42,736 nucleotides of DNA from a virus. The notes beneath the pieces were generated by a model. That model did not search any database and was not told the DNA's origin. It saw nothing but the letters and a program-made list of their open reading frames with translations. Below are positions 1 to 42,736 of this stretch, piece after piece; within the stretch, counting starts at the first letter, position 1; every line of letters begins with the position of its first letter. The translations under genes were made by a program, and so were the position numbers. Location of the stretch: the UHGV virus genome UHGV-0389216. One strand, written 5' to 3'.

Positions 1-1
1 T

Positions 2-169
2 AAGGCTGCCGTGGCAGGAATTAGTGGCAAAGTGACAGAGGTTAACCAGCAAAATACCTACCACATTTACGGTGGCGGAGATCCGCACGCTGTCGGTAAT
101 GAGGTTGCACGTCGGCAACAGTCTGCAAATGCTCAGGTCATGCGAAGTAATCAGGTGAGGGTGGGTTAG
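2..169 (+). CDS. 3' end of an upstream tail-module gene (partial, start lies outside window)
   Basis: Frame is open from the window edge to TAG at 167-169, and the stop overlaps the GTG start of the next ORF (TAGTG coupling). No start codon in window. Confidence 0.35.
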   Translation, partial: KAAVAGISGKVTEVNQQNTYHIYGGGDPHAVGNEVARRQQSANAQVMRSNQVRVG

Positions 170-756
170 TGGATATTCTCTCTACACTTTTTCATCAGCA
201 GAGCAGAAAAATAGGAATGATTGTTCCCAGTGTTGTTATTTCAGAGAAGCATACAGATATGCTTGAAATAACAGAGCATCCGGTAGAGGTCGGGGCTGCT
301 GTCGCTGATCATGCCTATAAAAAACCGTCAGAAGTGGTGATGGAGGTTGGTTTCGCCGGTGGCGGCGCATTGCTGGATTTTGCCAGTAACCTGACGGCTA
401 CCAGCCTGCTCGGCCTGAGTCCTCAGCAGACGTATCAGGAGCTACTGGATCTGCAGGAAAGCCGTATCCCCTTCGATGTGGTAACCGGTAAACGGCTGTA
501 CAGCAACATGTTGATCCGGGCGCTGGAAGTGACGACGGACAAGACAACCGAAAACGTCCTGTCCGCCGTCCTCACCCTGAGGGAGGTCCTTATCTCCCGG
601 ACACAGCAGATCACCGTCGCTGATAAAACCAACATGAAGGAAGGGGCCAGCACGTCGGCGGTACAGAACAGCGGCAACAAAACCACAAAGCCTCCAGATA
701 CTTCACTGCTGAAAAGCATCACGGGTAACGTGGTGTCATTACTGGGAGGCGGATAA
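169..756 (+). CDS. phage tail/baseplate-module protein, function unknown
   Basis: 195-aa ORF with GTG start preceded by GAGGGTGGG; translationally coupled to flanking ORFs in a tail gene block. Confidence 0.45.
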   Translation: MDILSTLFHQQSRKIGMIVPSVVISEKHTDMLEITEHPVEVGAAVADHAYKKPSEVVMEVGFAGGGALLDFASNLTATSLLGLSPQQTYQELLDLQESRIPFDVVTGKRLYSNMLIRALEVTTDKTTENVLSAVLTLREVLISRTQQITVADKTNMKEGASTSAVQNSGNKTTKPPDTSLLKSITGNVVSLLGGG

Positions 757-1058
757 TGACAATTCAGGAAATTCCGCTGACAGCGGACAACCAGCAGTTC
801 AGCATCGTCCTGGGTGGTGTCACCTGGCGGATTAGCATCATATGGCGCGATCCTTACTGGATTATGGACCTGCAGAACGACAGAGGGGAGCCGGTAATCT
901 CCGGTATACCTCTCGTCACTGGCGCTGACCTGCTGGCGCAGTACGCCTGTATGGGACTTGGTTTTAAGCTGTTGGTGGTCTGCGATGACAACACACAGGA
1001 TTATCCCACGAAAACTGACCTGGGCGGGCGCAGTCATTTACTGGTATCAACGGAGTAA
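756..1058 (+). CDS. small tail/baseplate-module protein
   Basis: 100-aa ORF; ATG at 756 overlaps previous stop (TAATG); position in baseplate block. Confidence 0.4.
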   Translation: MTIQEIPLTADNQQFSIVLGGVTWRISIIWRDPYWIMDLQNDRGEPVISGIPLVTGADLLAQYACMGLGFKLLVVCDDNTQDYPTKTDLGGRSHLLVSTE

Positions 1059-1060
1059 GC

Positions 1061-2122
1061 ATGACACAGAACTGGATGAGACATTTCGAGCTGCAGCTTG
1101 TGGACGGGAACGGTCAGGGAATTGAGCTAAGTGATTTCAAAGTCACCTTTACGATCGACTGGTTCAACATCAGCAGCGCGTCCCGGGTAGGGACTATCAA
1201 AATTTATAACCTCTCGGCAGATACTGTGAACCGAATTACCGGGCAGGAGTTTTCGAAAGTGCGTCTGATTGCGGGTTACGATGGTATCGCGCCGGAGGTG
1301 TCGGCAAGCGATGTCGGGACCGTGCGGGAGGTTGATGCGGCGGACGTGGGCCAGAGTGATGGCCGCAACTACGGACTGATTTTCAGCGGTGAAATTCGCT
1401 ACTCGGTCACAGGAAAAGACAGCCCGGTTGATTCCTACGTCCTGATTCAGGCAGCCGATACAGATCTGGCTTTTGCCACCAGCATAACTTCGCAGACGCT
1501 GGCGGCCGGTTATACGGTCGCAGACGTGAATCGCGCGCTGATGAAAGACTTCGAGGCCAAAGGCGCGACTGAAGGTCTGACGCCTGAAATGCCTGCTACC
1601 GTTTTCCCCCGGGGCCGGGTGCTATTCGGCATGACACGTCATCTTATGGATAACGTGGCCGGACAATGTGGCGCAACATGGCAGTTCGTGGATGGTCAGC
1701 GCCAGATGGTGGCGAATAACGAATATGTTCACGACGCGATTGTGCTCAGCAGTGCCACGGGGCTTATCGGTATGCCACAGCAGACTATCGGCAACGGCGT
1801 AAACGTCCGCGCGCTGATTAACCCGAACATCCGGGTTAACGGGCTCATTCAGCTGGATCAGGCTTCAGTATTCCGCACCGCGCTGTCGAACAACGATATC
1901 GCGATGGCCGGCGGGCAGATCACCGACCAGAACACGGACGGAAATATCACGCTCAGCGGCACCACATCGCAGCCTGCCAGCATCGCAACGGATGGCGTTT
2001 ATATTGTGCGCGGGATTATGTACAGTGGCGATACAAGGGGCCAGGCGTGGTACATGGATATGATGTGCGAAGCGCGTGGCGCGGCGGATCTGTATACGCA
2101 ATCGGCTTTGCAAAGGGGATGA
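1061..2122 (+). CDS. baseplate hub-like tail protein (putative)
   Basis: 353-aa ORF, ATG 1061 with GGAG upstream; size and position upstream of spike/J-like genes. Assignment is positional. Confidence 0.45.
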   Translation: MTQNWMRHFELQLVDGNGQGIELSDFKVTFTIDWFNISSASRVGTIKIYNLSADTVNRITGQEFSKVRLIAGYDGIAPEVSASDVGTVREVDAADVGQSDGRNYGLIFSGEIRYSVTGKDSPVDSYVLIQAADTDLAFATSITSQTLAAGYTVADVNRALMKDFEAKGATEGLTPEMPATVFPRGRVLFGMTRHLMDNVAGQCGATWQFVDGQRQMVANNEYVHDAIVLSSATGLIGMPQQTIGNGVNVRALINPNIRVNGLIQLDQASVFRTALSNNDIAMAGGQITDQNTDGNITLSGTTSQPASIATDGVYIVRGIMYSGDTRGQAWYMDMMCEARGAADLYTQSALQRG

Positions 2123-2125
2123 GCA

Positions 2126-2467
2126 ATGAGGGGTATTATTTTTCTGTTAGCTGTCTTTTCTGCGTGCAGCGCGTGGGCGGATGGCTTCACGGTTAAATGC
2201 GGTGGCTACACTATGGTTGCAAACCAGGGCGAGTTATCGACAATCAACGGTGAAAGAGTTACCTCTCAAAAAATCACCGAACTGGGTACCAATGGTTTGA
2301 AAGTAGACATGGGGCTTATGCCTGCCAAAGACGGTAACAACTACGGCTTTGAATACATTCGTCGCCCTGGTACCGAAACGCGATTCCTGAATGTCCAACT
2401 GCTGCAGAACAGCATGGATGCGCCGAAAATCATCGGTTCCTTTCCATGCAAAAAGATTGTTGATTAA
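2126..2467 (+). CDS. small secreted protein / possible lipoprotein (moron)
   Basis: 113 aa; N-terminal signal peptide MRGIIFLLAVFSACSAW with lipobox-like FSAC; inserted between baseplate genes. Confidence 0.5.
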   Translation: MRGIIFLLAVFSACSAWADGFTVKCGGYTMVANQGELSTINGERVTSQKITELGTNGLKVDMGLMPAKDGNNYGFEYIRRPGTETRFLNVQLLQNSMDAPKIIGSFPCKKIVD

Positions 2468-2520
2468 TCACTCGTAATTATAATGTGATACTTCTACTTT
2501 CACGATAAGGAATTTGTCGC

Positions 2521-2760
2521 ATGTTCGGATTTGATAAATTAATAACTCCAAAAATCATCAACGTTCTGTATGGCATCACAATGTTACTTCTGGTTGTTGC
2601 CGCCATTATAACGTTTGTTAATGGGAAGGCTGCTGGCGCTTTAGTGCTTTTGTTATGTGCTGTATTTTGCCGAATATTCTTTGAGTGCATCATGGTTTCA
2701 TTTAAAAACAATGAGTATCTTCGCCGAATAGCTGAAGCGTTAGAAGCAAACAAGCAGTAA
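2521..2760 (+). CDS. small two-helix membrane protein (moron)
   Basis: 79 aa with two hydrophobic segments (ITMLLLVVAAIITFV; ALVLLLCAVFCRIFF); AT-rich upstream region; followed by terminator. Confidence 0.45.
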   Translation: MFGFDKLITPKIINVLYGITMLLLVVAAIITFVNGKAAGALVLLLCAVFCRIFFECIMVSFKNNEYLRRIAEALEANKQ

Positions 2761-2778
2761 TGAAACTTCAATAATGAA

Positions 2779-2800
2779 CCCGCCACCCGGCGGGTTTTTT
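2779..2800 (+). terminator. rho-independent terminator
   Basis: CCCGCC-ACCC-GGCGGG hairpin followed by TTTTTT. Confidence 0.7.
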
Positions 2801-2819
2801 GCTTTCTGGAGCCTACTAA

Positions 2820-3572
2820 ATGGCAGTATCTGACCAGACCCGCAGCGGCGACCTTGCTGAAACATTCAAATCTGAACGGGAAACAACAAAGAACCAGATC
2901 CGTGTCGCCTTGCCTGGCATTGTTCAGTCATTCGATCCCGACGCGGTGACGGCGGTTGTGCAGCCAGCTATCCGTTCGGTTGAAAAGGATAACGACGGTA
3001 ACCGCATTACCAAAAATTACCCGTTGCTGGTGGATGTGCCAGTGGTATTTCCGCGCGGCGGAGGCTGTACGTTGACTTTTCCGGTTAAAGCCGGGGATGA
3101 GTGTCTTGTCGTTTTTGCCGATCGTTGTATTGATTTCTGGTGGCAGAGCGGTGGGATACAGGAGCCGGTCGATGACAGAATGCATGATTTATCGGATGCG
3201 TTTTGTATTGTCGGTCCCCAGTCGCAGGCGAGGAAGATTAGCGGTATTAATACCAGTGCTACACAGTTGCGTAGTGACGACGGCAGCACCTATTTTGAGC
3301 TTAATCCTGATACCAGGAAAATTAAAATTGTCGCTCCGGGGGGCCTTGATGTGGTTGCCCCTCTGGCTGATTTTTCTGAGAAAGTAACCATTCATGGCCT
3401 GTTAACCTGGATGGGGGGCATGGTGGGGTCTGTTGTTTCTGGTGTAGCTTCAAAAATCACTGGTGCTGTTGAGTTTTTGGGTAGCGTGAAGGCTAACGGC
3501 AAGCCAATCGATGATACGCACACTCATGGCGGTGTTCAGCGCGGTGGAAGCAATACCGATGGGGTAAACTGA
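2820..3572 (+). CDS. baseplate assembly/spike protein (gpV-like, putative)
   Basis: 250-aa ORF, ATG 2820 after CTGGAG; position before small baseplate protein and J-like gene; Gly-rich C-terminus. Confidence 0.5.
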   Translation: MAVSDQTRSGDLAETFKSERETTKNQIRVALPGIVQSFDPDAVTAVVQPAIRSVEKDNDGNRITKNYPLLVDVPVVFPRGGGCTLTFPVKAGDECLVVFADRCIDFWWQSGGIQEPVDDRMHDLSDAFCIVGPQSQARKISGINTSATQLRSDDGSTYFELNPDTRKIKIVAPGGLDVVAPLADFSEKVTIHGLLTWMGGMVGSVVSGVASKITGAVEFLGSVKANGKPIDDTHTHGGVQRGGSNTDGVN

Positions 3573-3925
3573 TGCGATACAGACGTGAAGACGCCGATGG
3601 CGATTACACCTTTGGCAGCGGTGATGACACCTGGCTGATTAACTCACCGGAGGCCGTGGCGCAGGCGGTAAAAACGCGATTCGAATTGTGGTATGGGCAA
3701 TGGTTTCTCGACACCACCGAAGGGACTCCGTGGATCCAGTCCGTGCTCGGTAAGCAGAAGCCGGAAACCTACAACCTGGCGATCCGTAAGCGCATCCTCG
3801 AAACGCAGGGCGTTAAATCAATCCTCTCTTTCAATACGACGGTGGATACCACGACCCGACGTGTCATGTTTTCCGCTGAAATCGACACTCTTTATGGAAT
3901 AACGACTGTTACATCGGAGGCGTAA
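3572..3925 (+). CDS. small baseplate protein (gpW/gp25-like, putative)
   Basis: 117 aa; start overlaps previous stop (TGATG); conserved V-W-J-I type order. Confidence 0.45.
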   Translation: MRYRREDADGDYTFGSGDDTWLINSPEAVAQAVKTRFELWYGQWFLDTTEGTPWIQSVLGKQKPETYNLAIRKRILETQGVKSILSFNTTVDTTTRRVMFSAEIDTLYGITTVTSEA

Positions 3926-5124
3926 TGGCTCTGAACCTTGATTCTCTCGGTTTATCTGCAAAGGTAACCGCGGAGGGGATCAGTGCGCCTGATTATCAGA
4001 CGATACTCAGCACCCTGATTAGCTATTTTCAGCAGATTTATGGCAGTGATGCCTACCTCGAACCGGACAGCAAAGACGGCCAGATGGTGGCTCTGATGGC
4101 GCTGGCGATTCATGATGCCAATAATATGGCGATAACTGTCTACAACTGTTTTTCACCGGCAACCGGCTATGGGGCCGCACTGACCAGTAACGTGAAAATA
4201 AATGGTATTTCACGTAAAGGCGCGACGAATTCTACGGTTGATTTGCTTCTTACAGGAACTGCCGGAACAACCATCATTAATGGCAGCGTGAAAGACAGTA
4301 ATAATGTGATATGGCGTTTGCCTGTTTCAGTGGTGGTCGGCGTGGATGGTACAGTGATGGTGACCGCAACATGTTCCGTCAGTGGTGCAGTGGCGGCGCT
4401 GGCTGGAACAATCACTGAAATTAATACGCCAACCCGTGGCTGGGTTTCGGTAACTAATCCTGCTGCGGCTACTGTTGGCTCTCCGGCAGAAACTGATGCT
4501 GAGTTACGTATCCGCCAGTCGCAAAGTGTTGCGTTGCCATCAATAACCCCATTTGAAGCACTGGATGGTGCTGTTTCTAATGTTGTCGGTGTAACCCGCC
4601 ACAAACTCTATGAAAACGATACTGGTTCGGAGGACGGTAACGGGTTACCGCCACACTCTGTTGCTGTAATTGTGGATGGTGGTGATGTGACGGATATTGC
4701 TCAGGCTATCAGAGGGAATAAAGGCCAGGGGACAGCCACTCACGGTACAACATCCGTTACGGTTCCGGATAAATACGGCAATCCCCATGTAATCAAATTC
4801 TCGCGTTCCAGTGATGTGCCTGTTTATGCCCGGATTAAATTAAAAGTTTTTACGGGTTATACCTCACAGATAGGGCAGCAGATCCAGCAGGCTATTTCCG
4901 ACTATATCAATAGTCTGATGATTGGTGATTCGGTCCTTTTAAGTCGCATTTACTCACCGGCGAATCTTGGCGTGGTGAGTGGCGGGAATGCACGCTATTA
5001 CGATATTCAGGAACTGACGATTGGTAAATCCCCGGGGGCTTTGTCGTCATCAAACATTGATATCAGATACAACGAATCTGCGTCCTGTACCCCGGAAAAT
5101 ATCGTTATAACGGTGGAGTCATGA
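3925..5124 (+). CDS. baseplate J-like protein
   Basis: 399 aa; ATG 3925 after GGAGG, overlaps previous stop; size and order typical of baseplate J. Confidence 0.55.
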   Translation: MALNLDSLGLSAKVTAEGISAPDYQTILSTLISYFQQIYGSDAYLEPDSKDGQMVALMALAIHDANNMAITVYNCFSPATGYGAALTSNVKINGISRKGATNSTVDLLLTGTAGTTIINGSVKDSNNVIWRLPVSVVVGVDGTVMVTATCSVSGAVAALAGTITEINTPTRGWVSVTNPAAATVGSPAETDAELRIRQSQSVALPSITPFEALDGAVSNVVGVTRHKLYENDTGSEDGNGLPPHSVAVIVDGGDVTDIAQAIRGNKGQGTATHGTTSVTVPDKYGNPHVIKFSRSSDVPVYARIKLKVFTGYTSQIGQQIQQAISDYINSLMIGDSVLLSRIYSPANLGVVSGGNARYYDIQELTIGKSPGALSSSNIDIRYNESASCTPENIVITVES

Positions 5125-5801
5125 GCAAATACACCGAACTAATCACGAACTACCACGCCACCAAACCTAAATTTCTTGCACATGTTGATCTGATGACCCG
5201 GCCGCTTATTGATGTTGCGGCTGCCACCAGAGGGCTGATTACTGCATTTGATATTGACTCTGCGGTTGGTGTGCAACTTGACATTCTGGGATTGTGGATC
5301 GGACGTAGCCGTGTTGTCAGCCAGCCTATCTCAGGTGTCTATTTCAGCTGGGATACCGACGGGCTTGGATATGATCAGGGTGTATGGCAGGGACCATACG
5401 ATCCTGATTTAGGATACATGTATCTCAGCGATGAAACTTATCGTGTCATTCTTAAAGCGAAGATTGCGATTAATAACTGGGACGGACGGAATGATTCGCT
5501 TCCGGCAATTCTTGACGCGGCAACAGCAGGATCCGGGCTGCGAATGCAGATAGTCGATAACCAGGACATGACGATATCGGTCTGGGTCTTTCCTGATACT
5601 GATATTTCAGATGTATCGCGTGAGTTAATTGCGGCAATTAAACAGGGGTATCTCACAGTAAAAGCCGCCGGGGTATGGGCGGGTGGCATTGAAACACCTT
5701 CTGTGGAAACCCCATCGGAAGGTTCAAAATTTTTTGGTTTTGATATGGATAACGAATTCATCAGTGGTTTTGATGTAGGGGCATGGGGAGTATTACTCTG
5801 A
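5121..5801 (+). CDS. baseplate/tail protein I-like
   Basis: 226 aa; ATGA overlap with J-like gene; precedes tail fibre gene. Confidence 0.45.
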   Translation: MSKYTELITNYHATKPKFLAHVDLMTRPLIDVAAATRGLITAFDIDSAVGVQLDILGLWIGRSRVVSQPISGVYFSWDTDGLGYDQGVWQGPYDPDLGYMYLSDETYRVILKAKIAINNWDGRNDSLPAILDAATAGSGLRMQIVDNQDMTISVWVFPDTDISDVSRELIAAIKQGYLTVKAAGVWAGGIETPSVETPSEGSKFFGFDMDNEFISGFDVGAWGVLL

Positions 5802-6868
5802 TGGCAAAAAATGACTTTAAAGCATTCGCAACGGGTAAAAATGCCAATGTTATGCCGCAGGAGGAATGGGAAGCGTTGCCTGCGCTTTTATCCGGATTTA
5901 CAGCAGGGAAAGCATCCAGTGCGCAGGTGAACAAAGCCATTCGACAGGCCAGCTTTATTACGGCAGCGCTTGCACAGTACACAGCTAATAAAAGTGGGCT
6001 GGATGTGCTTGATGATGGTGACCTGAACGGGTTTATCTCCAAAATGGAAGCGGCTTTGGGGAAGGATTTCCAGGCGCTTGACGCCACGCTCACTGCACTG
6101 GCAGGCCTTGCCACTGCGGCAGACAAACTTCCGTATTTTACGGGGAATGATACAGCCAGCCTGACAACCCTGACTAACGTTGGACGGAATATTCTGGATA
6201 AAGCAAGCACACAGGCGGTTATTCAATATCTTGGTCTGAGCGATGCAAGTGGATACGTTGGACGCTGGCTGAATACCCGGGTTTTCACCTCATCAGGTAC
6301 GTACACCCCGACGCCAGGAACAAAACGGATCAGGGTCACAATAACGGGCGGCGGTGGCGGAGGGGGCGGCTGCAAGGCTACATCCAATAATGAAACGTTT
6401 TTCGGTGCTGGCGGTGGGGCCGGTGGAACAATAATTTCAATAATGACCCCGACACAGAATAGTTATCCAGTCACTATCGGCGCAGGTGGGGCCGGTGGTG
6501 TTAGTGCAACGTACGGCATCAATGGCGGTAATAGCTTATTCGCATCGTTAATTGCTCCTGGTGGCGCAGGCGGCGGAAAGTCAGGAGTCACAAACACAAA
6601 TGGTGGTAACGGAGGTGTGCCGAGTACTGGCAATATCAATATCATTGGTGGATGTGGAGGCGACGGTCAGTCCGGAAATATCGGCGTCAGCGGTGAAGGC
6701 GGAACATCGTACTGGGGAGGTGGTGGACGCGCAGGCGCTGGCGGTGGCGTTAGCGGTAAGGCATATGGTTCAGGCGGAGGTGGTGCATACGATGCTGGTT
6801 ATAGCGGAACCAGTATGACGGGCGGGAAAGGCGCTTCAGGGATTTGTATTATCGAGGAGTTTGCATAA
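5801..6868 (+). CDS. tail fibre protein with glycine-rich C-terminal domain
   Basis: ATG at 5801 overlaps previous stop (TGATG). N-terminus MAKNDFKAF...; C-terminal half is GGxGG-rich (TGGGGGGGGC...GAGGAGG...GGNGG). Confidence 0.6.
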   Translation: MAKNDFKAFATGKNANVMPQEEWEALPALLSGFTAGKASSAQVNKAIRQASFITAALAQYTANKSGLDVLDDGDLNGFISKMEAALGKDFQALDATLTALAGLATAADKLPYFTGNDTASLTTLTNVGRNILDKASTQAVIQYLGLSDASGYVGRWLNTRVFTSSGTYTPTPGTKRIRVTITGGGGGGGGCKATSNNETFFGAGGGAGGTIISIMTPTQNSYPVTIGAGGAGGVSATYGINGGNSLFASLIAPGGAGGGKSGVTNTNGGNGGVPSTGNINIIGGCGGDGQSGNIGVSGEGGTSYWGGGGRAGAGGGVSGKAYGSGGGGAYDAGYSGTSMTGGKGASGICIIEEFA

Positions 6869-7284
6869 TGAATGCGTCATATGCAGTTATTGAAAATGGG
6901 ATGGTTGTGAATGTCATTGTCTGGGATGGCGAGGCTGAATTCACAGTGCCGGATAATCAGCAGCTCATTGATATTTCTGATATCAGTGAGCATCCCGGAA
7001 TCGGCTGGGCGTATTCAGACGGGGGATTTACTGCGCCGCTCCCTCCGGAACGTTCTCATGATGAACTGGTAGCTGACGCTGAACAGAAAAAACAGTCGTT
7101 GGTAGACGCAGCAATGGTCAATATCAGCGTGATTCAGTTAAAGCTGCAGGCCGGGCGCAAACTGACGCAAGAAGAAACTACCCGACTTAACGTTGTGCTG
7201 GATTATATCGACGCTGTGACGGCAACAGATACCAGCACTGCACCGGATATTGAGTGGCCGGATGAACCGTGCTTCGCTGAATAA
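6868..7284 (+). CDS. tail fibre assembly protein (Tfa-like)
   Basis: 138 aa from ATG 6868 (TAATG overlap with fibre gene); C-terminal ...DIEWPDEP resembles Tfa chaperones; last gene of tail block. Confidence 0.5.
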   Translation: MNASYAVIENGMVVNVIVWDGEAEFTVPDNQQLIDISDISEHPGIGWAYSDGGFTAPLPPERSHDELVADAEQKKQSLVDAAMVNISVIQLKLQAGRKLTQEETTRLNVVLDYIDAVTATDTSTAPDIEWPDEPCFAE

Positions 7285-8607: not shown

Positions 8608-8849
8608 AACGAACCTCTTTTAATAAAGTCAAGTGATAATGAAAAGTAAATATTGTAAACGAAAAAACACTGGACTGGAACATATATCTCTGCCTGTAAT
8701 TTAACCAAGATAGTTTTACTAACATAATCATAATTCGTTTATATGAACACATCCCGTTTGCAAGGCATCCATTGTTATGACATTGACGGTAGGTTGCAGC
8801 TTTATATCCGGCTTTTTGCAGCCGCAAAGCTGCTAGCCCCTATGTAATT

Positions 8850-11276: not shown

Positions 11277-11334
11277 TATAAGTACTCGCTAATATTGAAC
11301 GATATATATATCAAATTATTATGAAACTCGTCAG

Positions 11335-11613
11335 CTACTGGAGAAGGCTACCTGAACTTCGAGCTATTCCTGCATCCATATAGTTGATGGTCTTCTGGAG
11401 CTCTTCGATTAGGGCAACAGCTTTTGCTCGAGAAATGCATATTAGTTGATCCGGAAATTCTTGTAAGGGCCAGTTTGGTATACAGGCCATGTTATCAGTG
11501 AAGGATGCAGACAAGTAAACTTCATTGGTAACCAGAGAATAGCTTACCTCAAAATTGGTGAGTTCCGGCAAACTGCTAACGTTTGACTCTTTTCTGCGCA
11601 TAATATTATCCAT
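11335..11613 (-). CDS. hypothetical protein (start uncertain)
   Basis: Open frame runs to 11778, but the first 55 codons translate the tandem 12-mer repeat (LLNVLLNVLL). ATG at 11613 (MDNIMRRK...) is proposed as start; no clear SD. Confidence 0.35.
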   Translation of the reverse strand: MDNIMRRKESNVSSLPELTNFEVSYSLVTNEVYLSASFTDNMACIPNWPLQEFPDQLICISRAKAVALIEELQKTINYMDAGIARSSGSLLQ

Positions 11614-15067: not shown

Positions 15068-15081
15068 ATAATATGGCTCCT

Positions 15082-28546: not shown

Positions 28547-28549
28547 TTC

Positions 28550-30168: not shown

Positions 30169-30170
30169 GT

Positions 30171-33884: not shown

Positions 33885-33898
33885 ATCGCAGGTAACAC

Positions 33899-35119: not shown

Positions 35120-35122
35120 AAA

Positions 35123-35629
35123 ATGAATAATGTATTTCTGTACCGGATGCCTGTTGGCATTGCCGGGGCCGTCTCTCGCCCGCAGGACTTAACCGTCGAA
35201 CCGGTGGTCCTTAAATCCGATAACGCCTTCGCTGCCTATGGCCTGGCTGGTAAATACGATGATGACGGTTTTTTCGTGCCGCTGGCAGATGGTGATACCG
35301 CAGACAAGGTGAAGGGGATCTACGTGCGCCCTTATCCGACCACTTCGCAGCCGGACATGGTTCGCCAGGTGGGGACTGGCAAGAACTTCCCGGGCGACGC
35401 CATGAAGCGTGGCTACGTGACCGTTAATCTCGGTTCTGATTTTGATGCCAGCACCATCAAAAAAGGCGACCCGGTATACGTTGTCGTCTCCACTGATGAA
35501 TCCATCAAAGTGCCGCTGGGTGGATTCATGGCCACGTCAGTCAGTGGCAAAAACGTGGTGCTGACCAACGCTGAATTCACAGGTGCCGGAGATGCTGACG
35601 GCAATGCAGAAATTTCCTGGAAGATTTAA
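35123..35629 (+). CDS. head structural/decoration-like protein
   Basis: 168-aa ORF immediately upstream of major capsid gene. Confidence 0.4.
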   Translation: MNNVFLYRMPVGIAGAVSRPQDLTVEPVVLKSDNAFAAYGLAGKYDDDGFFVPLADGDTADKVKGIYVRPYPTTSQPDMVRQVGTGKNFPGDAMKRGYVTVNLGSDFDASTIKKGDPVYVVVSTDESIKVPLGGFMATSVSGKNVVLTNAEFTGAGDADGNAEISWKI

Positions 35630-35640
35630 GGAACAGACGA

Positions 35641-36582
35641 ATGATTACTTTTGATCAGGCAACCGTTGACAGCTCTGGTGCCTTTCTCATCGGGGAGCTG
35701 GAGCGACTCGACCAGACGCTGAACCTGCCACTGGTGGGGTACACCTGGACCCGCGATATTCAGTTGCGTGAAGATGTCTCCATCGCAGATGACATTTCCA
35801 GCTGGACGAATACCAGCTTCGCCGCTGCGGGTACTGGTGCAAATCCGAATGGCAAAAACTGGGTAGGCAAAGACTCAACCGCTATTGCTGGCGTGAACGT
35901 GGATATCGGCAAATCCGGTAACCCGATGAACCTGTGGGGGATGGAACTTGGCTGGACGGTCATAGAATTGCAGGCTGCTCAGCAGGTCGGACGCCCGATT
36001 GATACGCAGAAGTATGACGGGATGCAACTGAAATGGCAGATGGATAACGATGAACAGGTATATGTTGGCGATTCCGCATTAAACCTGAAAGGTCTTGTTA
36101 CCCTGGACGGCGTGCCTGTCAACAACGCTGCCAAAACGTGGGCAACCTCAACACCGGACGAAATCCGCGCAAGCATTAACCAGGTGCTGTCTGATGCGTG
36201 GGCCGCTTCCGGTTACTCTGTGGTTCCGCGTGATTTGCTGATCCCGCCTGAGCAGTTTGCTCTGTTGTCCAGCATCATCGTTTCATCTGCGGGTAACCAG
36301 TCCCTGTTGACGTACCTTCAGACCAACACCATCAGCTATCACCAGAACGGTGTTCCGCTGAATATCCGCGCGGTTAAATGGCTGAAAGGCCGTGGTGTGG
36401 GGAATAAGGATCGCATGGTTGCGTACACCAACGATAAAAAATACGTCCGCTACCCGCTGGTTCCGCTTCAGAGCGTGCCGGTGCAGTATCGCGGTCTGTA
36501 TCAGATCGTCACTTACTACGGCAAGCTGGGTGCAGTCGAGTCAGTGTACAAAGAAACCATTTCGTACGTTGATGGCATTTAA
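35641..36582 (+). CDS. major capsid protein (putative)
   Basis: 313 aa; position after scaffold-like gene; size typical of Mu T-like major head proteins. Confidence 0.6.
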   Translation: MITFDQATVDSSGAFLIGELERLDQTLNLPLVGYTWTRDIQLREDVSIADDISSWTNTSFAAAGTGANPNGKNWVGKDSTAIAGVNVDIGKSGNPMNLWGMELGWTVIELQAAQQVGRPIDTQKYDGMQLKWQMDNDEQVYVGDSALNLKGLVTLDGVPVNNAAKTWATSTPDEIRASINQVLSDAWAASGYSVVPRDLLIPPEQFALLSSIIVSSAGNQSLLTYLQTNTISYHQNGVPLNIRAVKWLKGRGVGNKDRMVAYTNDKKYVRYPLVPLQSVPVQYRGLYQIVTYYGKLGAVESVYKETISYVDGI

Positions 36583-36623
36583 CAGCCACATGGCCCCCTG
36601 GCGGGGCCATTAAGGATGACCCG

Positions 36624-36845
36624 ATGGCAAAAAATAATGCAGTAATATACGTACATACCCCGTTTGTGCTCACGCTTCCCGACGGTTCACGGCGCGAGTT
36701 TGTTAAAGGCCGTCATGCTGTGGAGGAAGACGTTGCCACGCACTGGTTCACTCGTGCGCACGCGGAAGTATCCGTTGGCAAAGCCACAGACGCGCGTAAC
36801 GAGGTAAAAAATGCCAAAGAATCAAAGTCTGCCAGCGGTAAGTGA
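36624..36845 (+). CDS. small hypothetical head-module protein
   Basis: 73-aa ORF overlapping start of next gene. Confidence 0.3.
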
Positions 36846-37218
36846 TTTTCGCCGCGACTTCCCGCAGTTTGCTGACCCTGCCAAATATCCCGAAGCGCAA
36901 ATCCAGTTTCGTCTGAATCTGGCCGATGAACTGCTGAGCGAAAACGTCACCGGCAAAAAGTTGTTTCCGTACTTTGCCGGGTTGTTCGTTGCGCACTACA
37001 TGACGCTCTGGGCGGCAGACAGCCGGGCGATGCTGGCTGGCGAGCCGGGCGGTTCAACCAATGGTGTTCAGTCCTCAAAGTCCGTGGATAAGGTAAGCGT
37101 CAGTTATGACACCAGCGCGACGCTGAATCCTGATGCAGGTTTCTGGAATAACACCCGATATGGCGCTGAATTTTATCAGTTGATCACGATGTTCGGTGCA
37201 GGTGGTCGCCAGCTATGA
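36811..37218 (+). CDS. head-tail connector/neck protein (putative)
   Basis: 135 aa; GAGG then ATG 36811; position after capsid gene. Confidence 0.4.
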
Positions 37219-37769
37219 GTTTCAAAAGCGGTGTAACAACGAGGGTGGATAACGCTAAGGCTATTCTGGATGCGCTCAGGTCGTTAACCAAAAAAGATGT
37301 GCTGGTCGGCATCCCTTCGGAAGACAGCGAGCGGGATGATGTTCCGTTTGGTAATGCGGGCATCGGTTACCTCAACGAATACGGCTCACCAGAGCAGAAC
37401 ATCCCGCCACGACCTCACCTGGTCCCCGGCGTTAAATCGGCAGAAGAGCAGACGGTGCCGCAGCTCAAAGCCGCGGCGCAGGCTGCACTTGATGGTAATG
37501 CTGCGGGAGCAGAAAGCGCACTCAACCGTGCCGGAACACTGGCCGCTAATGGCGTCAGGCGTTACATGACCATTACCGGCTTTACGCCGCTTGCTGACAG
37601 TACTGTTGAAGCCCGGGCTCGTCGGGGGCGCAAGGGGGCAACACTGGAACTTGCCCGGCGTGCTGCTGGCGAATCCCCGGGAACCGAACTGGCGAAACCA
37701 TTAATTGACACCGGGCAATATCGCAGAGCGATTACCCATGTTGTGAGGGATAAAAATGCCGACTCTTGA
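37215..37769 (+). CDS. neck/head completion protein (putative)
   Basis: 184 aa; ATGA overlap with previous gene. Confidence 0.4.
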
Positions 37770-38145
37770 TGTAACAGATGTGCTTTTTGACCCCGATTTT
37801 TGCGACTTCAATTTGTGGGTAACACGCCGTGTGCAAACGGTGGATGAGGACGGGATCGGCAGCGACAGCGAAGTTAAAAAGCAGTTTGCCGGAGTCGTAA
37901 CTGTTGATCGCTCTCTGGAAAACCGTCGTATGCAGGCCGGGCAGGTAATCAGCGGTGCAATTCTGATTGTGACGACTGAGCGACTGACGCAGGGACAGAC
38001 TGGCCGTGATGCCGATATCGTGACGTATCAGGGCCGTGATTATCGTGTGACTTTCGTCGACCCGTATACAGCGTATGGTGCCGGATTCGTTCAGGCGCAT
38101 TGTGAGTTGCTGCCGTTTGATGGGGGAATTCCGGTTGAGCAATAA
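37756..38145 (+). CDS. neck/tail completion protein (putative)
   Basis: 129 aa; overlapping coupled ORF. Confidence 0.4.
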   Translation: MPTLDVTDVLFDPDFCDFNLWVTRRVQTVDEDGIGSDSEVKKQFAGVVTVDRSLENRRMQAGQVISGAILIVTTERLTQGQTGRDADIVTYQGRDYRVTFVDPYTAYGAGFVQAHCELLPFDGGIPVEQ

Positions 38146-38683
38146 CACCAGCACAGAGCGCGGATGGCTGATACCAACCAGTGGCGATCCGGATTATGAC
38201 GAAGCGCTCGACAGGCTGTTAAGCCAGTGGATGCGTAACGTTTCCGGTCTGTCTGCCGGGATGGTTCGCCCGCGCTGGCAGAAAGAGCAGCCGCCACTGC
38301 TACCGGCTGAAACGAACTGGTGTGCGTTTGGGGTTATCGGATGGTCAGGTGATGACAGTCCGGCATTCACCAGACAGACTGATGATGGCTCTCAGCTCTG
38401 GCGGCATGAAACGATTGAGTGTATGGCTTCGTTTTATGGTCCGGCGGGGATGGTGTATGCGTCCCGGTTTCGTGACGGTATATCTGTACCGCAGAACAAC
38501 GCAGCACTGAATGTGCTGGGGCTGTCTCTTGGCGATTACACAGGTCTGACTCCCTTCCCTGAACTTATTAATCAGCAATGGGTCCGCCGCTACGATATGA
38601 CGGTGCGTCTGCGCCGGAAGGTTGTGCGCGAGTACGGTATTAAATCGCTGGTGGAAGCACCAGTCATCTTTTTCGGAGATTAA
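38120..38683 (+). CDS. tail completion protein (putative)
   Basis: In-frame ATG at 38120 overlapping previous gene end; ORF ends 38683. Confidence 0.4.
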   Translation: MGEFRLSNNTSTERGWLIPTSGDPDYDEALDRLLSQWMRNVSGLSAGMVRPRWQKEQPPLLPAETNWCAFGVIGWSGDDSPAFTRQTDDGSQLWRHETIECMASFYGPAGMVYASRFRDGISVPQNNAALNVLGLSLGDYTGLTPFPELINQQWVRRYDMTVRLRRKVVREYGIKSLVEAPVIFFGD

Positions 38684-38686: not shown

Positions 38687-39832
38687 ATGGCACAGGGCTT
38701 GCCTGTATCAAACGTTGTTAATGTTGATGTGATCATGTCGCCGCGTGCAGCATCAGGGCGAAATTTTGGTGCATTACTCATTCTCGGCCCGTCCACAATC
38801 ATTCCGGTAAGTGAGCGCATTCGCCGTTATTCTGCCGCGGAAGATATTGGAAAAGATTTTGGCGTGGAATCACCAGAATATAAGGCTGCGCAGGTGTTTT
38901 TCTCTCAATCACCGAAACCTCAGGAGGTTTTTGTTGGTCGTTGGGTGAAAACGAAGGGAGACAGCGAACAGGCCACGCCTGAGACGCTGGAGCAGGCTGT
39001 GAATGCCATGCTCGATTATACTTCATGGTATGGGCTGGGGATTGCAGACGATGCAGATATTCCGGATGCAGACTGGCTGAAAGTGGCTGCGGCGATCGAA
39101 TCCTCTTCTGTAAGCCGTATTCTGGCGATTACGACAAGCGATGAGAAATGCCTGCAGACTGCATCCAGCGATGATTTGGCATCAAAACTGAAAACCGCCG
39201 GATATTCACGCAGTTTTATTCAGTATTCATCGGGTAATAAATACGCTGCGTTATCTGCATTTGGCCGGGCATTCACGGTTAATTTCAATGGCAGTAATAC
39301 CGCGATTACGCTCAAGTTTAAGCAGGCGCCGGGCGTCGGGTATGAAACACTGACAGTCAGCCAGGCATCGGCACTTGATGCAAAAAACTGCAATGTATTC
39401 GTGTACTACCAGAATGATACGGCTATCCTCCAGCAGGGAGTGATGGCTAACGGCGATTTCTTTGATGAACGCCACGGCCTGGACTGGTTACAGAATTATG
39501 TGCAGACCAACCTCTATAACCTGCTTTATACCAGCACCACGAAAGTACCCCAGACTGAAGCCGGTATTACCAGACTGTTATCAAGTGTTGAAAAATCACT
39601 GGATCAGGCCGTTCAGAATGGACTGATTGCTCCGGGCGTATGGAACGGTGGCGACCTGGGTCAGTTGTCATCAGGTGACACGCTGCCCAAAGGTTATTAC
39701 GTATACGCCCAGCCACTGGATGAACAGGCACAATCAGAACGTGAAGCCCGTAAGGCTCCGGTGATTCAGGCTGCAATAAAACTTGCAGGCGCGGTTCATT
39801 ACGCTGACGTACAGATTAACGTTGTTCGCTAA
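38687..39832 (+). CDS. tail sheath protein (putative)
   Basis: 381 aa; first and largest of the sheath, tube, chaperone, tape-measure series. Confidence 0.55.
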
Positions 39833-39842
39833 GGGGAAGTGA

Positions 39843-40283
39843 ATGTCTACCTATTCTTTTATGGATGTCACTGCGACGCTGACCGGGCCGACCGGTTCGA
39901 TTGACCTCGGGTACGGTTCGGCAAGTTCTGAAGAGGGGATTGTGGTTGCGATGGGCGGTCCTAAAAACACCATGACCATCGGTGCTGATGGCGAAGTGAT
40001 GCACAGTCTCCATGCAGATAAAAGCGGGACGATTACCGTTAACCTTCTGAAGACATCACCGACAAATAAAAAATTGTCGCTGGCGTATAACGCACAGAGC
40101 CAGTCTTCTGCCACATGGGGGAATAACGTTATCGTGATCCGCAACAAGGTCAGCGGCGACATCATCACGGCACGCAGTGTTGCGTTCCAGAAACAACCGG
40201 ATAACGCCAACGCTAAAACCGGTAATACGATGCCGTGGGTGTTTGACTGCGGCAAGATTGACCAGGTTCTCGGGGAGTTTTAA
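39843..40283 (+). CDS. tail tube protein (putative)
   Basis: 146 aa; GGGGAAG upstream; between sheath-like gene and chaperone. Confidence 0.55.
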   Translation: MSTYSFMDVTATLTGPTGSIDLGYGSASSEEGIVVAMGGPKNTMTIGADGEVMHSLHADKSGTITVNLLKTSPTNKKLSLAYNAQSQSSATWGNNVIVIRNKVSGDIITARSVAFQKQPDNANAKTGNTMPWVFDCGKIDQVLGEF

Positions 40284-40286
40284 TAC

Positions 40287-40739
40287 ATGGAGTTCGAAAT
40301 CAAAGGCGTGAAATATCGCGTGGCAAAACTCAGCGTTTTTGACCAACTGAAAGTGACCCGCAAACTTCTGCCGGTGCTGGCAGGAATGATGTCAGATTTC
40401 GGGAGCATTCGCTCCCGTTTGCCTGCTGATGGCAAAATCGACACCGTGAAATTCGAGCAGTTAAAACCGGTGTTTGAAACCATGCTCCCGCGTATCGCTG
40501 AGGAACTGTCTTCCCTGACCGAAGATGACACCAGTGCGATTATTCATCCCTGTCTTGCGGTGGTATCGCGGCGTCATATGGACGGATGGGTTCCGGTATT
40601 TACCCAGGGCGAACTGATGTTTGATGATATTGACTTGCTGGTCATGCTGCAGCTGGTGGCGCGGGTGGTCGCCGATTCGCTGGGAAATTTTTTGCCTACA
40701 CCCCTTACCAGCACGACGCAGAGCCTGCAACAGGGCTGA
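40287..40739 (+). CDS. tail assembly chaperone (with candidate -1 frameshift extension to 40927)
   Basis: 150 aa immediately upstream of tape measure; slippery run GGGAAATTTTTTG near 3' end; -1 frame open from 40682 to TGA 40925-40927. Confidence 0.5.
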   Translation: MEFEIKGVKYRVAKLSVFDQLKVTRKLLPVLAGMMSDFGSIRSRLPADGKIDTVKFEQLKPVFETMLPRIAEELSSLTEDDTSAIIHPCLAVVSRRHMDGWVPVFTQGELMFDDIDLLVMLQLVARVVADSLGNFLPTPLTSTTQSLQQG

Positions 40740-40916
40740 CGTTTAACAGCCTGCCGGACGGGCTGTCCTACCTTCTCAATCCGGTTGACGCCGGGTTAAT
40801 TCCTTATACAGCACTTAAAGATGGCTCTGTCGATTTGTACGATATTGCTCTTTTGAATGACCATCTGGCGGTAAAAGCGGATAACCAGCGGCGCATTGAG
40901 AAATGGAGAGAGGATA

Positions 40917-42736
40917 ATGAACGCTGAAACTATTAAAGATTTCCTCGTCTCGCTTGGCTTCAGTGTGGATGATGCAGGAGCGAAAAAGTTCGGTTCTGTC
41001 CTCGCCGGTACAACTGCAAATGTCATCAAAATGGGGCTGGCCGTTGAAGGAGCCGCGCTGTCCGTGGTGGCCTTCACGGCTAAGATCGCCTCCGGTCTGG
41101 ATAATCTTTACTGGGCGTCACAGCGCACTGGAGCGACAGTCCAGGGAATTCAGTCTATTGGCTATGCGGTTTCGCAGGTTGGCGGCAGCGTGGACGCTGC
41201 GCGATCTTCTCTGGAAAGCCTCTCCCGGTTTATTCGTAATAATCCCGGTGCAGAGGGATTTCTGAATCGCCTGGGGGTACAGACACGGGATGCCAGCGGT
41301 AACATGCGTGACATGGCCGCTATTTTTACAGGTGTAGGCCAGAAGCTCAGCGGCATGCCGTATTACCGGGCTAACCAGTATGCGCAGATGCTGGGCATTG
41401 ACGAAAATACCCTTATGGCGATGCGTCGGGGTGTGGGTGGTTTCTCCGGGCAGTACAGCGCAATGGCGAAAGCTATCGGCTTCAATGCTGACGAGGCGGC
41501 CAGAAGCTCCAACAAATTTATGACCTCCCTGCGTGAGTTTAGCGCGATGGCAGGCATGGCCCGTGACAAAATCGGCTCTAATCTTGCGGGTGGGCTTGCG
41601 GGTTCGCTGGACACCCTGCGCCGCCATATCCTGGACAACTTCCCTCGTATCGAGCTGACCCTGACGAAAGCCATAAAAGGCATTCTGGCGCTCGGGGATA
41701 TTATCGGGCGGCTGTTCTTCAGACTGATTGAAGGAACATCAGGTCTCATCACCTGGTGGCAATCGCTGGATAAGCAAACGCGGCAGTTGATCTCGCTGTT
41801 TGGCGCACTGACGATTGCGCTGCGCATTCTGAACAGTACGTTCTGGATGTCGCCGATTGGCCTTATTACTGCGCTGGCGGCGGGGATTGCCCTTCTGTGG
41901 GAGGACTATCAGACCTGGAAGGAAGGCGGCGACAGCCTGATTGACTGGGGCAAGTGGAAACCGGAGGTCGATGCCGCGTTGAAGATGGTTCGTGACCTTA
42001 AAACAACCGTTAACGACCTGGCGAAAGCGCTGGCGAAACTGCTCAATATTGACCCCAAATCATGGTCCCTGAAGTGGGATTTCAGCAACTTCATCGACCA
42101 GATGGGCGAATTCAGCAAAATGCTGAACATGATCGCCGACCTGCTCAACGCTATCAAAGATGGCCGCTGGGCTGATGCCGTCAGCATCAGCAAACAGATA
42201 CTTAATCAGGGCAGTGAAAATCCGTCAGCGATGCCGATGGTTACAGACAGCGCTAACAGTACTGCCGACTGGATTAAAGAGCACTGGGGATTCGATCCTC
42301 GCAGCGTGGGCCGGACGGTACGCGGCTGGTTTGGTGATGATGAGCCGGAACAATATGCACAGGCTACGAAACGAGGAGAACGGAATAACAATCCGGGAAA
42401 CCTTAATTTTGCTGGTCAGGCAGGGGCTTCTCTTGAACGCCCGGGCGGGCGATTTGCCAGATTTGAAACTGCTTTTGATGGATTACGGGCTCTTGCTCGT
42501 CAGTTAATGCTGTACGCCGGACGGGGAATAAACAGTGTGGAGAAAATTATCTCTACCTGGGCACCTGCGTCTGATAATAACAACACAACTGCGTATATCA
42601 GGGCTGTATCGCAACGACTGGGAGTGGATCCCCGGGCTGCCCTGAATATGAGCGATCCGCAAACCATGTCAGCATTGATGAGCAGCATTATCCAGCATGA
42701 AAATGGAAGAAATATCTATTCCCGAGAGCTGATTAA
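40917..42736 (+). CDS. tail tape measure protein (partial, continues beyond window)
   Basis: ATG 40917 preceded by GGAGAGAGGA; 606 codons open to window end; Ala/Gly-rich helical N-terminus with hydrophobic segments. Not in ORF track because no stop in window. Confidence 0.7.
   Translation, partial: MNAETIKDFLVSLGFSVDDAGAKKFGSVLAGTTANVIKMGLAVEGAALSVVAFTAKIASGLDNLYWASQRTGATVQGIQSIGYAVSQVGGSVDAARSSLESLSRFIRNNPGAEGFLNRLGVQTRDASGNMRDMAAIFTGVGQKLSGMPYYRANQYAQMLGIDENTLMAMRRGVGGFSGQYSAMAKAIGFNADEAARSSNKFMTSLREFSAMAGMARDKIGSNLAGGLAGSLDTLRRHILDNFPRIELTLTKAIKGILALGDIIGRLFFRLIEGTSGLITWWQSLDKQTRQLISLFGALTIALRILNSTFWMSPIGLITALAAGIALLWEDYQTWKEGGDSLIDWGKWKPEVDAALKMVRDLKTTVNDLAKALAKLLNIDPKSWSLKWDFSNFIDQMGEFSKMLNMIADLLNAIKDGRWADAVSISKQILNQGSENPSAMPMVTDSANSTADWIKEHWGFDPRSVGRTVRGWFGDDEPEQYAQATKRGERNNNPGNLNFAGQAGASLERPGGRFARFETAFDGLRALARQLMLYAGRGINSVEKIISTWAPASDNNNTTAYIRAVSQRLGVDPRAALNMSDPQTMSALMSSIIQHENGRNIYSRELI

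What the first reader, a model, noticed from the sequence alone, without database searches (positions are those of the whole stretch)
1..42736. Vegetative gene order with int in the middle: not a canonical integrated prophage view
Tail genes lie on both sides of the integrase (baseplate/fibre at 0.2-7.3 kb; sheath/tube/tape measure at 38.7-42.7 kb). The order tail, cargo, int, xis, early genes, cI/cro, replication, Q, lysis, terminase, head, tail is the circular/vegetative map. In a prophage integrated through an attP next to int, int would lie at one end. The window therefore probably comes from a phage genome record, an episomal phage, tandem prophages, or integration via a different site; the edges fall inside tail genes rather than host DNA.
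Basis: inference. Interest (0 to 1): 0.45.

Follow-up and report, generated by a model that had tools for sequence, protein, structure and literature searches.

The report
Complete circular temperate phage genome
The window is one complete copy of a temperate E. coli phage genome written as a closed circle that was cut open inside its tail tape-measure gene, so the "integrase in the middle" gene order is the ordinary free-phage map, not an anomaly.

Summary
The last base of the window joins its first base inside codon 607 of a 662-aa tape-measure gene. That join is base-exact in two chromosomal prophages, so the 42,736 bases are exactly one genome unit with no host DNA. The attachment site attP lies at 11820-11837 (18-bp core TTCACACATATCACAATT), 244 bp upstream of a tyrosine integrase gene (12082-13479). 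In E. coli chromosomes the same phage type sits between yfhL and yfhH with int at the extreme left end: 13 of 13 loci examined have the same attL. The prophage map is a circular permutation of the window, as in the Campbell model. No complete E. coli genome (0 of 5,426) has an intact attP, and none carries the site on a plasmid, so the tandem-prophage and plasmid-like readings are disfavoured. Two IMG/VR contigs carry the same attP. The virion module resembles Salmonella phage SEN34, whose record has the same order. The large terminase resembles that of Sf6, which suggests headful packaging and explains an arbitrary opening point. Side observations: integration rebuilds rather than disrupts yfhL, an ISEc66-type IS sits in the cargo region, and the early operon holds accessory-gene hot spots.

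The parts
40917..42736 (+). Tape-measure gene, first 606 codons plus 2 nt; it continues at window base 1
   Evidence: Join of end to start gives a 662-aa ORF. It is 99.1% identical with 0 gaps to the prophage tape-measure protein, and L003 34991|34992 are adjacent. Weak PhageMin_Tail hit.
1..169 (+).
169..7284 (+). Baseplate, spike, wedge, tail fibre and fibre-assembly genes
   Evidence: Baseplate_J, Gly_rich_2 and Caudo_TAP; PGAP names in the homologous prophage.
7540..8607 (-). Cargo: Acyl_transf_3 acyltransferase (34-38% GC), likely an O-antigen acetylase as annotated in SEN34
   Evidence: Pfam 4e-23; composition; SEN34 carries an O-acetyltransferase at the same map position.
8743..10176 (-). 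ISEc66-type IS110-family insertion sequence (transposase 9011-10030)
   Evidence: DEDD_Tnp_IS110 plus Transposase_20; absent from the otherwise collinear prophage L007; 98.8% identical over 1,434 bp to annotated ISEc66 copies.
10629..11601 (-). Two conserved small genes of unknown function next to attP (215 aa at 10629-11276; about 88 aa at 11335-11601)
   Evidence: Present at the attR end of prophages L002, L003, L007, L008; phrog_17793.
11703..11781 (.). attP left arm: three tandem 12-bp repeats ending in AACACATT, plus an inverted GCAACACA copy; candidate integrase arm-type sites
   Evidence: All 4 AACACATT in the window lie at 11750-12010.
11820..11837 (.). attP core TTCACACATATCACAATT, identical in attB, attL and attR; presumed crossover region
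   Evidence: Four-way alignment; unique in the window and present at every junction examined.
11838..11867 (-). Phage-borne imperfect copy of yfhL codons 1-10; after integration it becomes the new 5' end of yfhL
   Evidence: YfhL remains 86 aa in lysogens, with A2S and K8R from the phage copy.
11984..12010 (.). attP right arm: two further CAACACA(TT) repeats
12082..13479 (+). Tyrosine integrase (465 aa)
   Evidence: Phage_integrase 30.4 bits, cut-off 27.1; PGAP names it tyrosine-type recombinase; the identical protein lies next to yfhL in 10 of 10 places shown.
13476..13676 (-). HTH_17 / AlpA-like small DNA-binding protein, candidate excisionase
   Evidence: HTH_17 25.8 bits, just below the cut-off of 27; phrog_4745 and weak excisionase PHROGs; SEN34 has an AlpA-family gene in the same place.
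13673..22931 (-). Leftward early operon: SNF2 helicase, 305-aa low-GC accessory gene, VRR-NUC, TIR protein, family A DNA polymerase, DUF2815 ssDNA-binding protein, DUF2800 PD-(D/E)XK nuclease, phrog_6784 protein
   Evidence: PGAP names.
23532..24488 (.). Divergent repressor pair: cI-like HTH_3 plus Peptidase_S24 (23532-24206, -) and cro-like HTH_3 (24258-24488, +)
24492..27387 (+). VapE-type primase/helicase (24492-26684) and antiterminator Q (26965-27387)
28187..29534 (+). Lysis cassette: lambda-family holin, GH24 endolysin, Rz-like spanin
   Evidence: Phage_holin_3_1; PGAP and GenBank names; 88.6% DNA identity to the SfV lysis genes.
29596..31793 (+). Small (Terminase_2) and large terminase subunits
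   Evidence: The TerL nuclease domain matches PDB 4idh/5c12 'Gene 2 protein' at 1.6e-27.
31793..38683 (+). Portal, head-morphogenesis protein, protease/scaffold, decoration protein, major capsid protein, neck genes
   Evidence: Phage_portal_3; phrog_324, phrog_1961, phrog_264; PGAP names.
38687..40739 (+). Tail sheath, tail tube, tail assembly chaperone
   Evidence: DUF3383 and KPP10_Orf10; SEN34 and PGAP annotation.

Best explanation
The window is the whole genome of a temperate E. coli myovirus in its free, attP-bearing form, deposited or assembled as a circle and linearised at an arbitrary base inside the tape-measure gene. It follows the Campbell model. The integrase recombines the 18-bp attP core (11820-11837) with the identical sequence at codons 11-16 of the host gene yfhL. 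The prophage map therefore starts at int and ends at the cargo genes, and the tail genes that are split between the window's edges are contiguous in the prophage. The phage carries its own copy of yfhL codons 1-10, so integration replaces the 5' end of yfhL instead of destroying it. Shown: exact closure, the attP/attB/attL/attR relationships, and the permuted prophage order. Inferred: crossover within the 18-bp core, arm-site and excisionase roles, and headful packaging giving circularly permuted virion DNA, which would make any assembly circular and its opening point arbitrary.
For: Closure: a 662-aa ORF runs across the join. Window bases 42736 and 1 are adjacent in prophages L003 and L007. 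The aligned tape-measure proteins have 0 gaps. There is no terminal repeat. att sites: chromosomal matches start at 11820 or end at 11857. The four-way alignment of attP, attL, attR and K-12 attB shows the shared 18-bp core with hybrid flanks. The core is unique in the window. An identical attL occurs in 13 of 13 integrated loci, attR in L002, L003 and L008, and attP in IMG/VR contigs L005 and L006. Int is next to attP. The exact Int protein is indexed in 2,496 collection blocks, and all 10 places shown have the context rseABC-lepAB-rnc-era-recO-pdxJ-acpS-shoB-yfhL|int. The attP arms are found in 160 complete E. coli genomes, always as separate chromosomal places. SEN34, a sequenced plaque-purified phage whose record is marked circular, has the same module order. 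yfhL is a published prophage site. The TerL nuclease domain resembles PDB 4idh/5c12; from my own knowledge these are gp2 of Sf6, a headful packager. TerS belongs to Terminase_2.
Against: No metadata or reads are available, so virion DNA cannot be told apart from an excised circle in an induced culture or a metagenome. The whole window was not found as such in any collection. The best phage records cover no more than 83% of the right part. The attP pattern is absent from genome contigs and metagenome contigs. Headful packaging rests only on terminase similarity; the packaging site of SEN34 was reported as not identified. The IS insertion suggests a long residence as a prophage, so this copy may be a recently excised element whose infectivity is untested.
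Confidence: 0.92

Rival explanations
1. The window is a slice of a bacterial chromosome that carries two head-to-tail copies of the prophage (a polylysogen). It would run from the tape-measure gene of copy 1 across the inter-copy attP to the tape-measure gene of copy 2.
For: A tandem array would also place an attP-type junction next to int, with tail genes on both sides. Nothing else favours this reading.
Against: The window is exactly one unit long to the base, which has a probability of about 1 in 42,736 for an arbitrary slice. None of 5,426 complete E. coli genomes has an intact attP, although 160 carry the attP arms on the chromosome.
Confidence: 0.01
2. The phage is maintained as a stable extrachromosomal circle (phage-plasmid or carrier state), and the window is that replicon.
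For: The sequence is a closed circle with its own DNA polymerase, primase and helicases. The source is unknown.
Against: No partition, plasmid-replication-initiator or telomere-resolvase gene appears in the Pfam and PHROG results or in the PGAP annotation of relatives. The phage has an intact int, attP and an S24-type cI repressor. All 322 matches to the att region in complete genomes are chromosomal and 0 are on plasmids. The identical integrase is found integrated at yfhL in every place shown.
Confidence: 0.03
3. The phage is integrated through a different (secondary or non-int) site, and the window lies wholly inside that prophage.
Against: The ends of the window are adjacent bases of one gene, so there is no room for a second junction. 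There is no host DNA in the window other than the 48-nt yfhL-like segment of attP.
Confidence: 0.01
4. The circle is an assembly or pipeline artefact, for example a prophage region circularised in silico or a chimera of related prophages.
For: Some deposited 'complete phage genomes' of this group are really prophage cut-outs with host genes (ON470588), so record quality in this group is uneven. The particular module combination was not found whole elsewhere.
Against: The attP junction is exactly what attL x attR recombination predicts, and it is seen independently in two IMG/VR contigs. A cut-out would begin at att, not inside the tape-measure gene. Collinearity with real prophages is unbroken apart from known variable cassettes.
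Confidence: 0.03

Closest known systems
Phage lambda and the Campbell model of integration (own knowledge of the lambda map)
   Same: Module order: packaging, head, tail, non-essential cargo ('b region'), attP, int, xis, leftward early genes, cI, cro, rightward replication genes, Q, lysis. A tyrosine integrase next to attP. The prophage map is a circular permutation of the free map with int at one end. An S24-type repressor and a Q antiterminator.
   Different: Contractile tail (sheath and baseplate) instead of a siphovirus tail. int is transcribed towards the xis-like gene (convergent) rather than co-transcribed with it. Replication uses PolA, VapE, SNF2 and DUF2800/DUF2815 instead of O/P. 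attB lies inside a gene. The terminase is of a pac type rather than cos (inference).
Salmonella phage SEN34 (Brunovirus SEN34, NC_028699)
   Same: Temperate myovirus with lambda-like regulation. About 80-83% DNA identity over the terminase, head and tail modules. Same order: terS through tail fibre, O-acetyltransferase, int(+), AlpA-like(-), early genes, cI/cro, replication, Q, lysis. The record is marked circular.
   Different: The early region is lambda-like in SEN34 (Red exo/RecT/Gam, O/P, nin genes), whereas here it holds PolA, VapE and SNF2. The integrase is different (394 vs 465 aa by gene length). Overall similarity is roughly 32% of the genome by my estimate; a relative of this phage scored 31.3 against SEN34 in PMC12945033.
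yfhL-integrated prophages of E. coli (e.g. IAI1 NC_011741, Rb-50 NZ_AP025682, ETEC H10407, O103:H2 12009)
   Same: 95-99% DNA identity over most modules, the identical integrase and the identical attL and attR. These are the integrated form of the same phage type.
   Different: They are in the prophage permutation, flanked by yfhL and yfhH. They differ in accessory cassettes, for example a pin invertase with an invertible fibre, SIR2, BstA or Nmad5 where the window has an acyltransferase, an IS and a TIR gene.
Sf6/P22-type headful-packaging terminases (PDB 4idh, 5c12)
   Same: TerL residues 249-521 align with the Sf6 gp2 ATPase-nuclease region at E = 1.6e-27. The small subunit belongs to Terminase_2.
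   Different: Only the C-terminal half is detectably similar. The N-terminal ATPase has no Pfam match. No pac site or permutation data exist for this phage or for SEN34.

Membership tests
Campbell-type (lambda-like) integrating temperate phage, free attP form | Tyrosine or serine integrase gene adjacent to attP | tested here: met
   Phage_integrase domain in 12082-13479. The attP core at 11820-11837 lies 244 bp upstream.
Campbell-type (lambda-like) integrating temperate phage, free attP form | attP shares a core with a bacterial attB, and lysogens carry hybrid attL and attR | tested here: met
   The 18-bp core is identical in the window, K-12 attB, attL and attR, with hybrid flanks.
Campbell-type (lambda-like) integrating temperate phage, free attP form | The prophage gene order is the circular permutation of the free genome, broken at att | tested here: met
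   Window 11820-42736 followed by 1-11857 is collinear with L003 2693-45009.
Campbell-type (lambda-like) integrating temperate phage, free attP form | Integrase and excisionase activities, and crossover within the core | not testable with these tools
   Only sequence evidence is available. The xis-like gene scores below the Pfam cut-off (25.8 vs 27).
Genus Brunovirus (SEN34) | At least 70% nucleotide similarity over the whole genome (ICTV genus criterion, own knowledge) | tested here: not met
   SEN34 covers 22% of window 1-25000 at 80.0% identity and 64% of 25001-42736 at 82.5%, about 32% overall by my estimate. Related, but not a member by this criterion.
Headful (pac) packaging phages | Large terminase groups with known headful terminases | tested here: inconclusive
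   The nuclease half matches Sf6 gp2 at 1.6e-27. No phylogeny was built and the N-terminal half is unassigned.
Headful (pac) packaging phages | Virion DNA is terminally redundant and circularly permuted | not testable with these tools
   This needs reads or restriction analysis. The sequence has no terminal repeat, which fits a collapsed permuted genome but does not prove one.
Phage-plasmids / episomal prophages (P1, N15, SSU5 types) | Plasmid partition and replication-initiation genes | tested here: not met
   None appear among the Pfam and PHROG hits or the PGAP names for the homologous prophages.
Phage-plasmids / episomal prophages (P1, N15, SSU5 types) | Found as a separate replicon in complete assemblies | tested here: not met
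   All 322 att-region matches in complete E. coli genomes are chromosomal and 0 are on plasmids.
Tandem prophage array | An attP-type junction inside a chromosome between two phage copies | tested here: not met
   0 of 5,426 genomes have a place covering at least 80% of the attP region. The window is exactly one unit.

The most novel reading that the evidence does not exclude
The circle is not just virion or transiently excised DNA. Instead this polymerase- and primase-encoding phage would persist as an autonomously replicating episome (carrier state) in its source population. A more modest variant is also open: because integration swaps the first 10 codons and the whole upstream region of yfhL for phage DNA, lysogeny may put a conserved host ferredoxin under phage transcriptional control.
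Probability: 0.04. Interest if true: 0.4.

Novelty: already known. Interest (0 to 1): 0.08.

Why it matters
It matters mainly for bookkeeping. The window should be treated as a complete, circularly closed temperate phage genome and not as a prophage with missing ends. Its tail genes at both edges are one contiguous module. The work also fixes attP, attB and the integration mechanism for a prophage type whose att-region arms occur in 160 of 5,426 complete E. coli genomes. It shows that yfhL, listed in the literature as disrupted by prophage integration, is in fact rebuilt with a phage-supplied 5' end. None of this challenges current understanding.

Tried and rejected
(1) I first took ON470579 (42,743 bp) and ON470588 (42,739 bp) to be unit-length virion genomes because their lengths are so close to the window's. 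I rejected this: ON470588 starts at the helicase gene, lacks int and ends in the host genes yfhH, pgpC and tadA, so it is a prophage cut-out and the length match is a coincidence.
(2) Integration at a tRNA gene: the window has no tRNA or tmRNA, and attB lies in yfhL.
(3) I treated the megablast overlap 11820-11857 as the core. The four-way alignment reduced exact identity to 18 bp (11820-11837); the rest is an imperfect copy of the yfhL 5' end.
(4) The attP junction pattern found nothing in genome contigs or metagenome contigs and only two contigs in IMG/VR, so the window's own source record was not identified.
(5) An exact-protein look-up of the acyltransferase returned only two 2.3-kb metagenome contigs.
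(6) Rfam at gathering thresholds gave no hit.
(7) A promoter/terminator scan of 11550-12150 found nothing above chance, and nothing on the minus strand that could drive the rebuilt yfhL.
(8) The total counts of AACACATT and GCAACACA in the window are not above chance; only their clustering at attP is notable.


Full report
**What was checked.** The finding concerns the layout of the whole 42,736-base window: tail genes at both edges and the integrase in the middle.

- ORF listing, Pfam and PHROG scans of the window's own proteins and the PGAP annotation of 97-99% identical chromosomal prophages (mapped) give the following map.
- Tape-measure C-terminus 1-169; baseplate, spike, wedge, fibre and fibre-assembly genes 169-7284.
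- Cargo: Acyl_transf_3 acyltransferase 7540-8607 (-), an IS110-family element at 8743-10176, and two small conserved genes at 10629-11601 (-).
- attP at about 11700-12010; tyrosine integrase 12082-13479 (+); HTH_17/AlpA-like candidate excisionase 13476-13676 (-).
- Leftward early operon 13673-22931 (-): SNF2 helicase, VRR-NUC, TIR protein, family A DNA polymerase, DUF2815 ssDNA-binding protein, DUF2800 nuclease.
- cI-like repressor with S24 peptidase 23532-24206 (-); cro-like 24258-24488 (+); VapE primase 24492-26684; Q 26965-27387; holin, endolysin and Rz 28187-29534.
- TerS 29596-30168; TerL 30171-31793; portal, head and neck genes 31793-38683; sheath 38687-39832; tube 39843-40283; chaperone 40287-40739; tape measure from 40917 to the window end.
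Two details need correcting: most replication genes lie left of cI, not right of cro, and int and the xis-like gene are convergent.

**The window closes on itself exactly.**
- Joining base 42736 to base 1 gives one open frame of 676 codons, with a 662-aa tape-measure protein from its ATG. The join falls inside codon 607.
- This protein aligns over 661 residues with 0 gaps and 99.1% identity to the tape-measure protein of the prophage in E. coli Rb-50. Window bases 42736 and 1 correspond to adjacent bases 34991 and 34992 of that locus.
- The same adjacency is seen in strain JNEC-KY175 (L007 1500|1501).
- There is no terminal repeat of 8 nt or more.
- The window is therefore exactly one genome unit with nothing missing or duplicated. 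For an arbitrary slice of a longer molecule that would be about a 1 in 42,736 coincidence.

**Where the phage integrates.**
- In complete E. coli genomes, matches to the int side begin at window 11820 and matches to the tail and cargo side end at 11857.
- Aligning the window with attL and attR of Rb-50 and the empty site of K-12 MG1655 shows an 18-bp core, TTCACACATATCACAATT (11820-11837), identical in all four, with the hybrid flanks expected from site-specific recombination.
- The core corresponds to codons 11-16 of the host ferredoxin gene yfhL.
- The next 30 phage bases (11838-11867, minus strand) are an imperfect copy of yfhL codons 1-10.
- After integration the gene is rebuilt. PGAP annotates an intact 261-nt yfhL in lysogens, and the Rb-50 protein is 86 aa, with only A2S and K8R coming from the phage part. 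The native 5' end stays at attR next to yfhH.
- In 13 of 13 integrated loci examined the attL junction is identical, and int is the first phage gene.
- The identical 465-aa integrase is indexed in 2,496 blocks of the assembly collection. All 10 places shown have the context rseABC-lepAB-rnc-era-recO-pdxJ-acpS-shoB-yfhL|int.
- The prophage order is window 11820-42736 followed by 1-11857.

**attP anatomy.**
- Three tandem 12-bp repeats ending in AACACATT lie 40-70 bp left of the core. Further CAACACA copies lie 165-190 bp to the right, and an inverted copy lies at 11705-11712.
- All four AACACATT and four of five GCAACACA occurrences in the window fall within 11705-12203.
- The total counts are not above chance, but the clustering is what integrase arm-type sites would look like. 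This is an inference.
- A consensus promoter scan of the attP-int spacer found nothing above chance, so how the rebuilt yfhL is transcribed remains unknown.

**Rivals.**
- *Tandem prophages or a plasmid-like episome.* A 441-bp query spanning attP matched 160 of 5,426 complete E. coli genomes. The matches were always separate chromosomal places (322 places, none on plasmids), and no place covered 80% or more of the query. An intact attP therefore does not occur in finished genomes. No partition or plasmid-replication genes were seen.
- *Integration through another site.* This is excluded because the window contains no second junction and no host DNA.
- *An in-silico artefact.* This is unlikely. 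The attP junction is exactly the recombination product, and it is seen independently in two IMG/VR contigs; one reads through window 10544-20926 at 98.7% identity.

**Comparison with known phages.**
- The arrangement packaging, head, tail, cargo, attP, int, xis, early-left, cI, cro, replication, Q, lysis is the lambda map (own knowledge).
- The closest classified phage is Salmonella phage SEN34 (Brunovirus), a temperate myovirus with lambda-like regulation. Its record is marked circular and has the same order, down to an O-acetyltransferase followed by int(+) and an AlpA-like gene(-).
- DNA similarity to SEN34 is about 80-83% and is confined to the virion and cargo modules, roughly 32% of the genome by my estimate. 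A relative of this phage scored 31.3 against SEN34 in PMC12945033. The window is a mosaic relative, not a member of that genus.
- yfhL is already a published prophage site. Bobay et al. listed it among "disrupted" genes, and it has been reported for Stx2b prophages.

**Why the record opens inside a gene.**
- Residues 249-521 of TerL match PDB entries 4idh and 5c12 (E = 1.6e-27). From my own knowledge these are the large terminase of Sf6, a headful packager. TerS belongs to Terminase_2.
- Headful packaging yields circularly permuted, terminally redundant DNA that assembles into a circle with no natural ends, so any opening point is arbitrary.
- This step is inferred. The packaging site of SEN34 was reported as not identified. 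An excised circle from an induced culture or a metagenome would give the same sequence.

**Dead ends and corrections.**
- The GenBank "complete genomes" ON470579 and ON470588 have almost the window's length, but ON470588 is a prophage cut-out that lacks int and ends in the host genes yfhH, pgpC and tadA.
- The attP pattern was absent from the species-representative genomes and the JGI metagenome contigs.
- There were no tRNA and no Rfam hits.
- The window's exact acyltransferase occurs only on two short metagenome contigs.

**Verdict.** The explanation is textbook: a complete temperate phage genome in its free attP form. The phenomenon is already known and interest is low.

Noticed in passing
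window 11820-11867 (minus strand); L003 2480-2740; L004 3664-3924: Integration does not disrupt yfhL as the literature states (PMC3603311). The phage supplies a replacement for codons 1-10 plus all upstream DNA, and YfhL stays 86 aa with A2S and K8R. The native 5' end and the yfhH-yfhL linkage are moved about 42 kb away. No promoter-like site was found for the rebuilt gene.
   Followed up: partly
window 8743-10176: An ISEc66-type IS110-family element (1,434 bp; transposase 9011-10030, minus strand; 13-nt inverted ends ATGAACACATCCC / GGGATGTGTTCAT) is inserted between the acyltransferase and the 215-aa gene. It is absent from the collinear prophage of strain JNEC-KY175. Two short ENA metagenome contigs that encode the identical acyltransferase end about 980 bp upstream of it, with a truncated gene at the edge, which may be the same insertion; I did not align them to check.
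   Followed up: partly
window 16777-17538 (minus strand): A TIR-domain protein (Pfam CAP12-PCTIR_TIR 2.9e-31; PADLOC candidate system PDC-S35 1.3e-108) sits inside the leftward replication operon between VRR-NUC and the DNA polymerase. It is conserved in many but not all relatives.
   Followed up: no
window 15130-16047 and 19700-19981; loci L012-L021: There are two accessory-gene hot spots in the early-left operon, one between the helicase and the polymerase and one between PolA and DUF2815. Relatives carry different cargo there: SIR2, BstA, Nmad5, DNA methylases, an HATPase protein, AntA/Bro-N, Arc repressors, DUF6338. The window has a 35% GC 305-aa gene with a weak TIR hit at the first spot and only a short spacer at the second.
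   Followed up: no
L008 (ON470588.1) 40486-42739: The GenBank 'complete genome' of Escherichia phage vB_EcoM-611R5 contains the host genes yfhH, pgpC and tadA at its right end and lacks the integrase. It is a mis-delimited prophage region, not a phage genome.
   Followed up: yes
window 5783-8607 versus L003 40792-43705: The tail-fibre end is modular. The window has a glycine-rich fibre, one assembly gene and an O-antigen-type acyltransferase (34-38% GC). Relatives instead carry an invertible fibre segment with two opposed assembly genes and a pin-type DNA invertase.
   Followed up: no
window 12082-13676: int (+) and the xis-like HTH_17 gene (-) are convergent and overlap by 4 nt at their 3' ends, unlike lambda's co-transcribed int-xis. 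SEN34 has the same convergent int/AlpA arrangement.
   Followed up: no
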